In this document: piece after piece, positions 8,080 to 61,222 of the stretch
How positions within the stretch are numbered: position 1 is the stretch's first letter
Layout of the letters: each line of letters starts with the position of its first letter
Source of the DNA: a virus
Length of the DNA stretch: 64,000 bases
Reading direction: 5' to 3' (one strand)
Virus record (IMG/VR): IMGVR_UViG_3300016675_000632
Coordinates: 1,010-65,009 of that record
Made by a program: the position numbers and the translations under genes
Notes under the pieces: generated by a model
The model's database searches: none
What the model saw: only the letters and a program-made list of their open reading frames with translations
Told to the model about the DNA's origin: nothing

Positions 8080-8218
8080 ATATTATACGGTAACAAATAC
8101 AAAAGGTTGCAAATTACGCAAAAAAAAATGTACTTTTTTAGTACTTTTTTTCTTTTTGTGTGTTATCTTTTGCATTTGTTACAACAAAGGTATAAACTTT
8201 ATTTTGAACGTGCAAGGG
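8080..8218 (-). promoter_or_regulatory. ~140-bp repeated tandem-promoter cassette, copy 1
   Basis: Near-identical to 12215-12352 and to 22278-22415 (inverted). Contains TTG-N20-TACCTTTG and TTGCAAC-N16-CGTATA. Confidence 0.85.
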
Positions 8219-8318
8219 GTCGCGGTAAAAAATGTTAATTCTTGCAACACAGTTGCAAATAAAAACACATTTTTGCAACAAAAAACCGCTTTTTGCAATA
8301 AAATCTCCATAAAAAGCG

Positions 8319-8350
8319 AAAAGCAGCCGTTTTTATGCGGCCGCTTTTTT
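8319..8350 (-). terminator. Intrinsic terminator
   Basis: GCGGCCG/CGGCTGC stem plus T tract after the 8354 stop. Confidence 0.6.
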
Positions 8351-8353
8351 GCT

Positions 8354-8839
8354 TTAGGGGTTGGGGATTTCTAACCCCGCAAAGGTTCGTATAAATTCGT
8401 GAACTTTATCTCTCTGCGCTGCATTGGAATAAAGCAATAAATATACACTTTGTGCTTGAATAAGCATATCCTTACGAATATCCCTAAATTCTGTTTGGGT
8501 TCTTGCGTGGGCAATAATTCCTACCTGCATCAACCTTTCACGCAAAGCCCGTTTTTTATTCGCTGTGGTAGCGGCGCAATGGTACGAAGAATAAATTTTA
8601 TCAAATTCTTGCTTATCTATTTTTATACTAGGTTTATCTTTGCTGGCGTTACGGGCTATGATGCGGGCTTGTATATGTTCGGCGAATTTTTTAAAACCTT
8701 CGCCCAAATTAGTGTTCCTTTCGTATTGGTTGGATTCGGCTACTATAGCCAATAAATCATCAATAGAAATAACCTTTTTGGCTGGGCTGCTGCTGTTGCG
8801 CCGAAATTTTGGGATAGTTGGCTGGTTAGTGGTTTCCAT
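8354..8839 (-). CDS. Hypothetical protein
   Basis: ORF track. Confidence 0.75.
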   Translation of the reverse strand: METTNQPTIPKFRRNSSSPAKKVISIDDLLAIVAESNQYERNTNLGEGFKKFAEHIQARIIARNASKDKPSIKIDKQEFDKIYSSYHCAATTANKKRALRERLMQVGIIAHARTQTEFRDIRKDMLIQAQSVYLLLYSNAAQRDKVHEFIRTFAGLEIPNP

Positions 8840-8875
8840 TTTAGAAATAAGTGGTTAATGATTGGTTGTGATTAT

Positions 8876-9475
8876 TTAGTAAAAAACAGGTGTTTGGCCT
8901 TGTGCGCCCTCTGTTGCTCTGGTGGGCGTTTTGGGGCTTTCTTGTCGCGCGTGCTGCGATATATCCAATTGGGCAAATTCTTCCAAGATGTCTATAGCTC
9001 GGTTTATTTCTTGGGCAAATTCTTTCTTTTGATAGGGGAATAACCTATTGTATTCAGCATTTACCATTTGTTTATAGGTTTGGTTAAATTCGTACATATT
9101 TAGATAGGTAGAAAACAACTGTATAAAATGCGCCTTTGTTGGCTCGTCGCGCTGTAGGTGGGATTTTAGGGCGATAATTTGGCGGGCTGCATTGTGGAAA
9201 GAGCGAAACCCTGTGCTATCGGGATACCCAAGCGAATTTTGCCAATAGATTTTCAAGTGATAAGCCCCGAAAGGGTGGCTATCGGTATTGCTTGCTCGGT
9301 AGTATAGCCAAGACCAAAACGCGTAACAAATAGCGGTATCTTGTAGCGCATAGCAAGCCATTTGTTCGTCTTCATCATCTATTTTCTGCCAAATACTTCG
9401 GGCGAGTTCGCCCAAACGGTCGGATTGAGCGTGTTGCTCTAATACAGCAAAGCAACCTTCAGTGAAAATTGGCAA
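8876..9475 (-). CDS. Hypothetical helical protein; TTG start, or joined to 9480-9575 by a +1 shift
   Basis: ORF track; start uncertain. Confidence 0.7.
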   Translation of the reverse strand: MPIFTEGCFAVLEQHAQSDRLGELARSIWQKIDDEDEQMACYALQDTAICYAFWSWLYYRASNTDSHPFGAYHLKIYWQNSLGYPDSTGFRSFHNAARQIIALKSHLQRDEPTKAHFIQLFSTYLNMYEFNQTYKQMVNAEYNRLFPYQKKEFAQEINRAIDILEEFAQLDISQHARQESPKTPTRATEGAQGQTPVFY

Positions 9476-9479
9476 ATAT

Positions 9480-9575
9480 CTATTTTTGAAAAATGCGCCC
9501 CCCTACAATATAAGCTGCAAAATTGTGAGGGTCAAAAGTCGCCCAATAATCGGGGCGAATATACTTTATAATCAT
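9480..9575 (-). CDS. 31-aa ORF MIIKYIRPDYWATFDPHNFAAYIVGGRIFQK
   Basis: Hand translation; ATG preceded by an A run. Confidence 0.45.
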   Translation of the reverse strand: MIIKYIRPDYWATFDPHNFAAYIVGGRIFQK

Positions 9576-9635
9576 TTTTTTGATGGAGTGTAAAACTCCA
9601 GCCTTTGTGAGGCTGGAGTCGTTGGGGTTAGTAAT

Positions 9636-59345: not shown

Positions 59346-59383
59346 ATTTATAGAATTTTAGCGGGTTATTGATAAGGTTTTAT

Positions 59384-59836
59384 TTATAACAAAAATACAG
59401 CGTAGCCGTCTTGCTTGGCAAAGTAGCCCATTTTCTGCTGTTGGTTATCGCTAACATTGGGCAAATAGCGGTATTTATGTGGCAAGATGCTTCTAAATGT
59501 TTGCTGGGGCAATTTTTTATATTTTGGCTTATCCAAAAATTCTATCTTTTGGTTGGGCTGCAATGCGCCCGTTTCTGCTAAATACGCAACAGCTTGGCTT
59601 TGGAAATAAGCCCGCATTCCCTCGTAATTCGGCTGCTCATTGTTTCTTTTTTTTCCAAAAGCAGATAAAACGGCTGGCAAGACGCTGAAAACGAGATGCC
59701 CAAACAAGCCTGTAGTTTTCTTTCTTTTGATGAAGTACGGGAGTATGGCCAAGTTTTGGCGCAAGGCGATAGTTTTGTTTATTTCCTCTGGCGAGGAGTT
59801 AGGCGGGAAAGCACCGTATTGATAGCATAATATCAT
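59384..59836 (-). CDS. Hypothetical protein, possible TM
   Basis: ORF track. Confidence 0.7.
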   Translation of the reverse strand: MILCYQYGAFPPNSSPEEINKTIALRQNLAILPYFIKRKKTTGLFGHLVFSVLPAVLSAFGKKRNNEQPNYEGMRAYFQSQAVAYLAETGALQPNQKIEFLDKPKYKKLPQQTFRSILPHKYRYLPNVSDNQQQKMGYFAKQDGYAVFLL

Positions 59837-59865
59837 AATTTGTAAAATGTTTTTGAAAGTGGGGA

Positions 59866-60390
59866 TTATTTAGCGCGTAAGATAGCCAACAAGTCCTTAC
59901 CCTCTTTAAATAAATTCCAAATATAAATAACCATATTGGCGGTTTTATCTAAAAAGGTTATCATTTCCGCGCTTCTCTTGAATTTGAAAGCGGGCGTTTC
60001 CTTGAGCAGGGTTATAAGTTGGTCTTTCTCTTGTATATCCAAATCTTGCAACTCCTCACCAATTTGGCGCAAGTTCAATAAGAGCCTACCGCCTTTTATG
60101 GCTGGAGAAAGCAGCCCCAAAGCCTCAAACCAACTTATGCTATCATCAGAGGTAACATCTGCCAAATGTGGGACTATTTCGGCTATATATTGTATAAATT
60201 CGGTAACTTTGGCAATGCCAAACTTTGCGCCCTTTTCGGGTGTTTCAAACTCGGCAAAGCGAGCTATAAAGGTGTTTTCTGCCATAATCGGATATTTTTT
60301 ATTTAGAGGGATTTTATAGTACATTGACAGTTCAGCCAACATTGCAAATAATTTATTTGTAGCGATATTTGGCAACGAATTATTAAACAT
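59866..60390 (-). CDS. Helical hypothetical protein (start 60390 or 60285)
   Basis: ORF track; both ATGs have AT-rich leaders; -7 box TATATTTG near 60496-60503. Confidence 0.7.
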   Translation of the reverse strand: MFNNSLPNIATNKLFAMLAELSMYYKIPLNKKYPIMAENTFIARFAEFETPEKGAKFGIAKVTEFIQYIAEIVPHLADVTSDDSISWFEALGLLSPAIKGGRLLLNLRQIGEELQDLDIQEKDQLITLLKETPAFKFKRSAEMITFLDKTANMVIYIWNLFKEGKDLLAILRAK

Positions 60391-60556
60391 ACATTTTTTA
60401 TTTTGGATAAAATAGCGGCTCAACTCGCGCCGAGCCGCTACCCAAATTTAACCCGTTTTCAAAATTTACAAACCGCAATGTTAATTATGCGGGGCAAATA
60501 TACGGTTTTTTGATAACAAAAAATAATTTTTATTTTTTTTATAGAATTATTTGCAC

Positions 60557-60588
60557 AAAAAAGCCCTGCGCGGTTGGGCGCAAGGCTA
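60557..60588 (-). terminator. Intrinsic terminator
   Basis: AGCCTTGCGC/GCGCAGGGCT plus T6. Confidence 0.7.
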
Positions 60589-60635
60589 ATCAACAAATAA
60601 TGTAAAATAAAATGAAACGCCGTTTCACAACGGGA

Positions 60636-61053
60636 TTAGTCTTGAGTGCCTGTGAGCGGGTTTTGGTCGGTTTCGGGCAATTTTGGTTCATCGCGCGGGG
60701 GCGTTGGGTCTGCGGGTGGGTTTGGGTTATCGTTGCAACCGCAATCGCAAACGCATTTTGCAAGCCTGCAAAGCAAGCCTAATAAAGTTGTTTTTTCACC
60801 AAATAGATAAGCCCCTTTTTTTTACGTCTGCCTCAAATGCAAAGTATTCTTTTTGCGCTTTTTGGACGGCTGCGCAATCTATACGGGTTAGGCTAATGTT
60901 GCGGTCGCAACCGATATGATAGCCTTTTGCAGGATACAAACCCTCCGCTGTAGTGCTTACCTCGCCAACGGGTAAATCGGTTAGAATAAAGCTATCTAAG
61001 AATATAGTTTGCCCTTTTTCGGGCGTGATGAATAAACGGCTTTCTTGTGCCAT
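60636..61053 (-). CDS. Hypothetical protein split at an A8 run; Cys/Pro-rich second part
   Basis: Track ORF 60796-61053; the +1 frame reads KKGAYLFGEKTTLLGLLCRLAKCVCDCGCNDNPNPPADPTPP...TGTQD to TAA 60636. Confidence 0.5.
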
Positions 61054-61193
61054 AATTTTTTTGAATTGGTTTGAAAATTAACGAATAAATCAATAAAGGT
61101 AAATTATTACCAAACGGGAAGGGGCTGTTGCCACATATTAAAGGATTTTTGAGGTTAGGAAATAAATTTTATTGTGAATTATCAACGGGGTAT

Positions 61194-61222
61194 TATACGG
61201 GCATTTTTCGGTTTTGTTGCAA
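61194..61222 (-). promoter_or_regulatory. TTGCAAC-N16-CGTATA promoter-like motif
   Basis: Read directly; upstream of 61053. Confidence 0.6.

What the first reader, a model, noticed from the sequence alone, without database searches (positions are those of the whole stretch)
8084..61222. Ten-site (T)GCAAC-N16/17-CGTA promoter regulon resembling ECF sigma promoters
Seen: sites at 8084-8112(-), 12219-12247(-), 12461-87, 12928-56, 16179-207, 21435-63, 22383-411, 25917-45, 28410-39 (all +) and 61194-222(-). All are intergenic, oriented with the downstream genes, and spaced 16 nt (8 sites) or 17 nt (2 sites). I saw none at the head/tail divergent promoters. Established: ECF sigma promoters have AAC at -35 and CGT at -10 (Bacillus SigM TGCAAC, SigW CGTA, 16-nt spacer), unlike the Bacteroidota TTG/TAnnTTTG promoter. 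Inference: the phage drives early/middle genes and tRNAs with a host ECF (possibly envelope-stress) sigma factor or a phage activator. I recognised no sigma gene in the window.
Basis: partly seen in the sequence, partly recalled or inferred. Interest (0 to 1): 0.7.

Follow-up and report, generated by a model that had tools for sequence, protein, structure and literature searches.

The report
ECF-sigma-type promoter set in a phage
An uncultured freshwater phage of Bacteroidota puts nearly all its non-structural genes and its tRNAs behind eleven copies of one promoter-like signal. The signal matches the self-regulating promoter of a family of host stress sigma factors, and the phage has no detectable sigma gene, so it may use a host stress regulator to run its early programme.

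Summary
All eleven are intergenic, point the same way as the downstream gene or tRNA, and lie about 24-90 nt upstream of it. One-mismatch variants occur at background frequency and almost all lie inside genes. The extended consensus is aatTTGCAACCTTTT-N-cCGTATAAt.

In a mosaic relative, all three comparable sites keep the core (0/33 changes) while the spacers drift (13/50).

The motif does not fit the Bacteroidota sigma-A promoter, which the phage also uses, partly in tandem with these sites and at the head/tail promoters. It fits ECF geometry. It also matches the conserved upstream motif GCAACC-N15-CCGT(G/A) of an ECF sigma clade that I found in Cytophagales and Sphingobacteriales genomes.

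No sigma gene is detectable in the 65-kb record, which may be incomplete, or in the relatives.

The sites are almost certainly promoters (about 0.9) and probably ECF-type (about 0.65). Reading by a host ECF sigma is the leading model (about 0.45) but is unproven: there are no RNA data, the host is unknown, and the motif is not enriched in host genomes. Rivals are a cryptic phage factor, or sigma-A plus a phage activator.

The parts
2263..2288 (-). It heads genes 1605-2204 and 573-1571.
   Evidence: Exact match. Intergenic, 58 nt before the start. Core conserved at the orthologous place in the relative.
8086..8110 (-). Promoter-like site, N16, in cassette copy 1. It heads the minus-strand run 8054 down to about 2375.
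12221..12245 (-). Promoter-like site, N16, in cassette copy 2. It heads 12167 down to 8354 (a 190-aa protein, a PD-(D/E)XK nuclease and others).
12461..12485 (+). Promoter-like site, N16, heading 12519-12914.
   Evidence: A sigma-A-type promoter lies about 30 nt upstream.
12930..12954 (+). Promoter-like site, N16, heading tRNA-Cys (13044) and the tRNA cluster. Its -10 side also reads TAtaTTTG.
16181..16205 (+). Promoter-like site, N16, heading 16238-21350. It is the only site with CGTAaa instead of CGTAta.
21436..21461 (+). Promoter-like site, N17, heading the single gene 21486-22061.
   Evidence: A sigma-A-type promoter at 21405-21434 abuts it.
22385..22409 (+). Promoter-like site, N16, in cassette copy 3. 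It heads 22447-25860.
25919..25943 (+). Promoter-like site, N16, heading 25981-28323, which includes the two D5-like HTH regulators. Its -10 side also reads TAtaTTTG.
28412..28437 (+). Promoter-like site, N17, heading 28525-33002.
   Evidence: Core conserved in the relative.
61196..61220 (-). Promoter-like site, N16, heading the minus-strand run 61053 down to the terminase genes (large subunit at 55205-56554).
   Evidence: Core conserved in the relative.
8185..8215 (-). Canonical Bacteroidota-type promoter (TTG-N20-TAccTTTG), about 100 nt upstream of site 8086 in the same direction (cassette copy 1).
12319..12349 (-). The same canonical promoter in cassette copy 2.
22281..22311 (+). The same canonical promoter in cassette copy 3.
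28440..28488 (+). Terminator-like hairpin plus a run of seven U directly after site 28412 (a leader).
   Evidence: Fold of -14 kcal/mol, z -1.1. Kept in the relative with a G.U change.
2228..2258 (-). Terminator-like 9-bp hairpin plus a run of five U directly after site 2263 (a leader).
   Evidence: Fold of -11.5 kcal/mol, z -2.0. Conserved in the relative.
26786..27286 (+). HTH-repeat protein, paralogue A, PHROG 323 'transcriptional regulator, D5-like'.
27291..27797 (+). HTH-repeat protein, paralogue B, PHROG 323. It is the only ORF with any sigma-region-4-like match, and that match is to 24-residue HTH pieces only.

Best explanation
The eleven sites are real promoters of the ECF-sigma (group 4) type, with consensus aatTTGCAACCTTTT-N-cCGTATAAt. 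They drive every non-structural transcription unit of the phage: the recombination and replication-associated runs, the tRNA cluster, the regulator and lysis-region runs, and the terminase run. The head and tail operons, and the upstream member of several tandem pairs, use ordinary Bacteroidota sigma-A promoters.

The most likely reader is host RNA polymerase carrying a host ECF sigma. That sigma would belong to the clade whose own genes carry GCAACC-N15-CCGT(G/A) upstream and are followed by a membrane-spanning partner with a C-terminal outer-membrane barrel, a putative anti-sigma factor.

On this model, envelope disturbance at infection, or an unknown phage product, frees the sigma, and the phage's near-consensus sites capture it.

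Shown: the motif, its excess, placement, orientation and conservation; its misfit to sigma-A; the match of its core to the host-clade motif; and the absence of a recognisable phage sigma.

Inferred: that transcription starts there, that an ECF sigma reads the sites, and that this sigma is host-encoded.

Rough odds: promoters 0.9; ECF-type recognition 0.65; host-encoded ECF sigma 0.45. The confidence given is for the full statement, including the host origin of the sigma.
For: - Excess and placement. There are 11 matches against 1.0 expected, all intergenic and co-oriented. Variants occur at background frequency and almost all lie inside genes.
- Conservation. Three of three comparable sites are kept in a mosaic relative, with 0/33 core changes against 13/50 spacer changes, Fisher p = 0.0012.
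- Geometry. AAC-N16/17-CGT with a T-tract next to the -35 element and a CGTA -10 element. This is as published for B. subtilis sigma-W (PMC5758882), and GCAACC-N17-CGTCT examples occur among S. coelicolor sigma-E targets (PMC6767563).
- Host-phylum match. An ECF sigma gene of an Arcicella MAG has GCAACC-N15-CCGTA 64 nt before its ATG. Of 30 orthologues in other Cytophagales species, 23 have GCAAC within 130 nt upstream (binomial p about 1e-15). Sixteen have GCAAC-N16/17-CG[TA], mostly 46-48 nt from the start, with unrelated spacers. A Mucilaginibacter homologue (51% identical) has GGCAACCTTTT-N-ACGTG. Other ECF genes of the same genomes lack GCAAC.
- Misfit to sigma-A. Nine of the eleven sites lack the TTTG of TAnnTTTG, and TTG-to-TA spacing is 22-23 nt against 20 in the phage's own canonical promoters.
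- Not a housekeeping signal. No more than 3 stringent matches occur in any of 401 Bacteroidota genomes.
- No phage sigma found. This was tested with Pfam on 87 ORFs, six-frame Sigma70_r2 and TIGR02937 searches, a custom Bacteroidota ECF HMM, hhalign, TGA read-through ORFs and ORFs of the relatives.
Against: - There are no transcript data, so no start site is mapped.
- The host is known only to phylum (TerL relatives are at most 35% identical).
- The shared core is short (GCAACC plus CCGT). The flanks differ: the host sites have CTG after CGTG, the phage has TATAAT. A weight matrix built from the host sites with their flanks does not pick out the phage sites.
- The commonest phage spacer is 1 nt shorter than in the host clade.
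- The motif is not enriched in three genomes that carry the clade. The host regulon would therefore be tiny, and the sigma presumably scarce or held inactive.
- T-A-T-A-A-T is conserved at 11, 11, 10, 11, 8 and 7 of 11 sites. That is more than ECF -10 elements usually show and resembles a group-1 -10 hexamer.
- The record is rated 68% complete, so a phage sigma could lie in unseen DNA.
Confidence: 0.45

Rival explanations
1. A phage-encoded sigma-like factor reads the sites. It would either be too diverged for profile methods or lie in the part of the genome missing from the record. This would resemble SPO1 gp28/gp34 or the sigma of phiEco32 and 7-11.
For: The record is rated 68% complete. Two independent assemblies break at the same left end, and the two ends carry diverged copies of one module, so unseen DNA is possible. 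About two thirds of the ORFs have no family match. Tandem pairs of sigma-A and GCAAC promoters fit an early-to-middle switch driven by a phage product.
Against: No region 2 or ECF signal was found by six independent searches, including six-frame and stop-read-through searches, and none in the relatives' 45 kb. Atlas look-ups of two candidate ORFs gave no sigma lead. The motif core equals that of a host-phylum ECF clade, which a foreign sigma need not match.
Confidence: 0.2
2. This is sigma appropriation, or class-II activation. Host sigma-A would read the TATAAT-like -10 element. A phage DNA-binding protein, for example the two D5-like proteins with sigma-region-4-like HTH repeats, would bind TTGCAAC in place of a -33 contact, as T4 MotA/AsiA do at middle promoters.
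For: TATAAT is strongly conserved. Two sites (12930, 25919) carry a perfect TAnnTTTG over the same bases, and 25919 heads the operon that encodes the HTH-repeat regulators, which would allow bootstrapping. TTGCAA boxes are repeated upstream of the cassettes and are over-represented fourfold in the window. The HTH repeats score against Sigma70_r4_2.
Against: The invariant C and G immediately before TA (11/11 each) and the invariant AAC are the hallmarks of ECF promoters and are not explained by sigma-A. No MotA or AsiA family appears among the Pfam matches. The D5-like proteins are not detectable in the relative's 45 kb, although the relative keeps three sites; that contig is incomplete. T5 D5 is linked to late transcription, not early (my own knowledge).
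Confidence: 0.2
3. The sites are not promoters. They would be operators or other protein-binding sites, such as repressor, partition or packaging signals, that happen to lie in intergenic DNA.
For: No direct evidence of transcription starts. In three sites the spacer is also part of a long inverted repeat within the cassette.
Against: The motif is bipartite and asymmetric, always points towards the downstream gene, and lies 24-90 nt upstream of starts. Where I read the upstream sequence (sites 25919, 28412, 61196) a terminator-like hairpin precedes it. Its geometry is that of a known promoter class. Operators are usually palindromic.
Confidence: 0.05

Closest known systems
B. subtilis ECF promoters (sigma-W, sigma-M, sigma-X, sigma-V; Gaballa et al. 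2018, PMC5758882)
   Same: An AAC-containing -35 element, a homopolymeric T-tract directly after it (tGAAACnTTTt), a spacer of about 16 nt, and a CGTA -10 element that is specific to sigma-W.
   Different: The -35 element reads GCAAC rather than GAAAC. The -10 element extends to a conserved TATAAT. The host phylum is Bacteroidota. The promoters sit in a phage rather than in a stress regulon.
[quoted passage not shown] 2019, PMC6767563)
   Same: Many targets read (G/T)GCAACC-N17-CGTCT. That is the same -35 hexamer and the same geometry.
   Different: The -10 element is CGTC(T), not CGTATA. The host is a high-GC actinobacterium, and the targets are chromosomal cell-envelope genes.
Conserved upstream (presumably autoregulatory) motif of an unnamed Bacteroidota ECF sigma clade
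   Same: A GCAACC -35 element, often followed by TTT; a CCGT(A/G) -10 element; a fixed spacer; the host phylum inferred for the phage; one member comes from a freshwater genus.
   Different: The spacer is 1 nt longer than in most phage sites. The flanks differ (CTG against TATAAT). It is a single site per genome, with no genome-wide regulon visible. Its function as a promoter is itself inferred from conservation.
Phage-encoded sigma factors (phiEco32 gp36 and phage 7-11, PMC8948821; SPO1 gp28/gp34, own knowledge)
   Same: A phage-specific promoter class that differs from the host housekeeping consensus and is reused across many phage transcription units.
   Different: Those phages encode the sigma. 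No sigma gene is detectable here.
T4 middle promoters with MotA/AsiA sigma appropriation (PMC2988021)
   Same: Tandem early and middle promoters in front of the same genes. A conserved box replaces the -35 contact, together with a TATAAT-like -10 element.
   Different: No MotA or AsiA homologues were found. The conserved CG before TA and the AAC core point to a group-4 sigma rather than a remodelled group-1 sigma.
Bacteroidota sigma-A promoter, TTTG(-33)/TAnnTTTG(-7) (Bayley 2000 and Chen 2007, own knowledge)
   Same: The phage also uses this type, at 8185-8215, 12319-12349, 22281-22311, 12398-12429, 21405-21434, and with -7 boxes at the head/tail region.
   Different: Nine of the eleven GCAAC sites lack TTTG in the -7 box. 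TTG-to-TA spacing is 22-23 nt rather than 19-21.

Membership tests
ECF (group 4) sigma-dependent promoter | -35 element with an invariant AAC core | tested here: met
   GCAAC is invariant in 11/11 sites, with C following in 7/11.
ECF (group 4) sigma-dependent promoter | -10 element with a CGT core | tested here: met
   CGTA is invariant in 11/11, preceded by C in 8/11.
ECF (group 4) sigma-dependent promoter | Rigid spacer of about 16-17 nt between AAC and CGT | tested here: met
   16 nt in 8 sites and 17 nt in 3. No match at N14-15 and one genic match at N18-19.
ECF (group 4) sigma-dependent promoter | T-tract proximal to the -35 element (a feature of several ECF groups) | tested here: met
   CTTTT or TTTT follows GCAAC in 6/11 sites (CTTAT in a seventh); 3/11 have AAAA or AAAG instead. 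Published feature: PMC5758882.
ECF (group 4) sigma-dependent promoter | Transcription start about 5-9 nt after the -10 element, and dependence on an ECF sigma in vivo or in vitro | not testable with these tools
   No RNA run holds the phage. There is no biochemistry.
ECF (group 4) sigma-dependent promoter | A cognate ECF sigma with matching specificity is available in the cell | tested here: inconclusive
   A Bacteroidota ECF clade with a GCAACC...CCGT(G/A) upstream motif exists. The phage's host species is unknown, and the motif is not enriched genome-wide.
Bacteroidota sigma-A promoter (TTTG / TAnnTTTG) | -7 box TAnnTTTG | tested here: not met
   Present in only 2/11 sites (12930, 25919). 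The other nine read TAtaAT, TAtaGA, TAaaAC, TAtaAG or TAtaAC.
Bacteroidota sigma-A promoter (TTTG / TAnnTTTG) | 19-21 nt between TTG and TA | tested here: not met
   22 or 23 nt here, against 20 nt in the phage's own canonical promoters.
Phage-encoded sigma system (SPO1 or phiEco32 type) | A sigma-family gene in the phage genome | tested here: not met
   No hit to Sigma70_r2, TIGR02937 or a custom ECF HMM, and none by hhalign or with TGA read through. Caveat: the record may be incomplete.
Sigma appropriation (T4 MotA/AsiA type) | MotA-like activator and AsiA-like anti-sigma genes | tested here: not met
   Neither family is among the Pfam matches of 87 ORFs at E <= 1e-3. Analogous unrelated proteins cannot be excluded.
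Sigma-54 promoter (GG-N10-GC) | TGGCAC-N5-TTGC with fixed -24/-12 spacing | tested here: not met
   Read by eye from the upstream sequences. Most sites lack GG upstream of TTGC, and where GG occurs the spacing is 10 rather than 12.

The most novel reading that the evidence does not exclude
A phage without any sigma gene runs essentially its whole non-structural programme, including its tRNAs and terminase, from near-consensus promoters of a host envelope-stress ECF sigma. The cell's own alarm at infection would then become the phage's early and middle gene switch, with host sigma-A promoters used only for a first pulse and for the late structural operons.
Probability: 0.35. Interest if true: 0.8.

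Novelty: new variant of a known kind. Interest (0 to 1): 0.6.

Why it matters
Phages are known to redirect host polymerase with their own sigma factors, with appropriators, or with their own polymerases. Wholesale dependence on a host ECF stress sigma has not, as far as I could find in the held literature, been described for any phage.

If true, it would link envelope-stress signalling directly to phage development in Bacteroidota, a phylum with dozens of ECF sigmas per genome and almost no mapped ECF regulons.

It would also give a strong natural consensus promoter for one ECF clade, which is useful as an orthogonal part. And it would predict a simple host-range and resistance determinant: loss of the sigma.

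The ECF clade motif found here is also a testable assignment of promoter specificity for an uncharacterised sigma and barrel-anti-sigma pair.

Tried and rejected
- GenBank phages: no DNA or portal-protein relative. IMG/VR: no portal relative.
- An IMG/VR scan for TTGCAAC-N16/17-CGTATAAT gave 118 or more single, mostly chance hits. A few look alike, but their whole records are not clearly enriched.
- Distant TerL-related prophage loci (1.36 Mb): 34 matches against 27 in the reversed control, so no enrichment.
- 401 Bacteroidota genomes: the stringent motif occurs about as often as the reversed control, at most 3 per genome. Three genomes that carry the clade show no enrichment.
- A weight matrix built from the host ECF sites including their flanks did not rank the phage sites first. 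Only the core is shared.
- A methyltransferase query for more relatives returned only widespread homologues of about 50% identity and was not useful.
- Atlas look-ups of ORFs 21486-22058 and 8879-9475 gave no usable lead.
- Rfam found only the three tRNAs.
- Casas-Pastor 2021 did not let me name the ECF group.
- A sigma-54 reading was rejected on spacing. Structure prediction was not run, because the candidate ORFs lack homologues for an alignment.

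
Full report
**What the window is.** The window is almost all of a 65,340-bp IMG/VR virus record, rated linear and 68% complete. G+C is 40.7%. The source is a freshwater metagenome. It encodes a portal, an S49 head protease, large terminase, tail genes, an amidase, DNA methylases, a PD-(D/E)XK nuclease, an O-like replication initiator and three tRNAs. It has no close relative among GenBank phages. All genomic relatives of its terminase (at most 35% identity) lie in Bacteroidota, apart from a few metagenome bins labelled otherwise. 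Start codons lack Shine-Dalgarno sequences (read), which fits that phylum.

**The observation.** GCAAC-N16/17-CGTA occurs 11 times against 1.0 expected, and no shuffle reached 11. The ten listed sites are all there. An eleventh lies at 2263-2288(-).
- All eleven are intergenic, co-oriented with the next gene or tRNA, and 24-90 nt upstream of it where the start is clear.
- Single-mismatch variants number 34, about chance level, and all but three lie inside genes on either strand. The core is therefore under strict selection only in these intergenic places.
- The extended consensus is aatTTGCAACCTTTT...cCGTATAAt. GCAAC and CGTA are invariant, the flanking T-T is present in 9-10 of 11, and the following T-A-A-T in 10, 11, 8 and 7 of 11.
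- Three sites are copies within a repeated cassette of about 220 bp, so nine sequences are independent.

**Conservation.** A 48.5-kb Logan contig is a mosaic relative. Its terminase is 51% identical, and some non-structural genes are 75-97% identical. It covers three of the sites (28412, 61196, 2263) and has the motif at all three orthologous places. Across the three pairs the core shows 0/33 changes and the spacer 13/50, Fisher p = 0.0012. The contig ends close to where the repeated cassettes would be, so the other eight sites cannot be compared.

**Transcription layout.** The sites head every non-structural unit:
- three minus-strand runs (2263, 8086, 12221);
- seven plus-strand units between 12.4 and 33 kb, including the tRNA cluster and the operon with two D5-like HTH-repeat regulators;
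- the minus-strand run from 61 kb to the terminase genes.

Five sites are preceded, within 100 nt or less and in the same direction, by a canonical Bacteroidota promoter of the form TTG-N20-TAnnTTTG. In the three cassettes an A/U-rich hairpin lies between the two promoters. The head/tail divergent region has no GCAAC site. It has sigma-A-type -7 boxes on both strands and two 42-nt direct repeats. The phage therefore uses two promoter classes. Sites 2263 and 28412 are followed at once by terminator-like hairpins with U-runs, and the relative keeps both. That hints at promoter-proximal attenuation.

**What kind of promoter.**
- Against sigma-A: nine of the eleven sites lack the TTTG of the -7 box, and TTG-to-TA spacing is 22-23 nt against 20 in the phage's own canonical promoters. 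A stringent form of the motif occurs at most 3 times in each of 401 Bacteroidota genomes, as often as its reversed control, so it is not a housekeeping consensus in any sampled lineage.
- For ECF: the geometry is AAC-N16/17-CGT, with a T-tract after the -35 element and a CGTA -10 element. This is the published pattern for B. subtilis sigma-W (tGAAACnTTTt ... CGTA; PMC5758882). GCAACC-N17-CGTCT is common among S. coelicolor sigma-E targets (PMC6767563).

**A host-phylum counterpart.** I fetched 26 sigma-70-family genes, about 20 of ECF size, from three Bacteroidota genomes. One of them, in an Arcicella MAG (a freshwater Cytophagales genus), had GCAACC-N15-CCGTA 64 nt before its ATG. I then fetched 30 orthologues (51-100% identity) from other Cytophagales species.
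- 23 have GCAAC within 130 nt upstream on the coding strand (binomial p about 1e-15).
- 16 have GCAAC-N16/17-CG[TA]. In 14 this reads CGT(G/A), mostly 46-48 nt from the start. The spacers are unrelated.
- A Mucilaginibacter homologue (51% identical) has GGCAACCTTTT-N-ACGTG, and Gilvibacter homologues keep CGCAACC.

This looks like the self-regulating promoter typical of ECF sigma genes. The protein is a true ECF sigma, with regions 2 and 4_2 and a TIGR02937 match. Its gene overlaps a conserved ORF of about 480 aa, which has a short N-terminal part, one membrane helix, a long disordered linker and a C-terminal domain weakly matching an outer-membrane beta-barrel (Pfam E = 1e-4, below the family's cut-off). 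This is a plausible envelope-spanning anti-sigma factor.

**Limits of that match.** Only the core is shared. A matrix built from the host sites with their flanks does not retrieve the phage sites. The usual phage spacer is one base shorter. The motif is not enriched genome-wide in three genomes that carry the clade, so the host regulon would be very small.

**Search for a phage factor.** No sigma was found by any of these:
- Pfam on 87 ORFs;
- six-frame Sigma70_r2 and TIGR02937 searches with stops read through;
- a custom HMM of Bacteroidota ECF sigmas;
- hhalign of 64 ORFs;
- the relatives' ORFs.

The only signal is short region-4-like HTH pieces in the D5-like repeat proteins. Completeness is uncertain. 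The two record ends carry diverged copies of one module (83% nucleotide identity over 471 nt), and an independent ENA assembly breaks at the same left end.

**Verdict.** The sites are almost certainly promoters and most likely of ECF type. A host ECF sigma of the GCAACC/CCGT clade is the leading candidate reader, at about 0.45. A cryptic or unseen phage sigma (0.2) and sigma-A plus a phage activator (0.2, favoured by the conserved TATAAT and the two hybrid sites) remain open. No paper in the held library describes a phage relying on a host ECF sigma in this way, but that is absence of evidence only.

Noticed in passing
window 14611-14721: Four or five iteron-like repeats, ATTGCGCAAAAATTGCGCA, at 23-nt spacing inside the 450-aa replication-initiator gene (14276-15628). 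This is a likely origin of replication, as in lambda O.
   Followed up: no
window 43099-43182: Two tandem 42-nt repeats (81% identical) in the head/tail divergent region, flanked by sigma-A-type -7 boxes on both strands. They are candidate binding sites for a late activator, possibly the D5-like proteins.
   Followed up: partly
window 8120-8215(-), 12255-12349(-), 22281-22376(+): Within each cassette, the RNA from the upstream sigma-A promoter would begin with GUAACAAAUGCAAAAG. That is complementary to the spacer of the downstream GCAAC promoter (CUUUUGUAUUUGUUAC), and an A/U-rich hairpin lies between them. This could be a short RNA or a long stem. Its function is unknown.
   Followed up: partly
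whole window: The palindrome TTGCAA occurs 79 times against about 20 expected from base composition, and 56 of the 79 are inside genes. This may reflect codon or dinucleotide bias or a methylation or restriction-related site.
   Followed up: no
window 1572-2041 versus G000 64870-65340 (L218:2871-3341); window 573-1571 versus 62782-63861: The two ends of the record carry diverged copies of one module: 83% nucleotide identity over 471 nt, and downstream membrane proteins only 23% identical. An independent ENA assembly (L336) ends at the same left position. This could be a duplication, a strain chimera or a true genome end.
   Followed up: partly
window 5221-5269, 5560-5608, 5931-5961: A GC-rich element (TAAGCGGGACTTGCGCCCCGCGTGGGTTA) repeated at a spacing of about 340-360 nt between small minus-strand genes. 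It is probably a set of repeated terminators or processing sites.
   Followed up: no
L279-L309, L328 (Cytophagales and Sphingobacteriales genomes): An uncharacterised ECF sigma clade with a conserved GCAACC-N15-CCGT(G/A) upstream motif. Its overlapping partner of about 480 aa joins a single membrane helix to a C-terminal domain weakly matching an outer-membrane beta-barrel. This assigns a promoter specificity that could be tested independently of the phage.
   Followed up: partly
window 26786-27286 and 27291-27797: Two adjacent paralogues, each made of three HTH repeats of about 45 aa (PHROG 323, 'D5-like transcriptional regulator'). They were not detected in the relative's available 45 kb.
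   Followed up: partly
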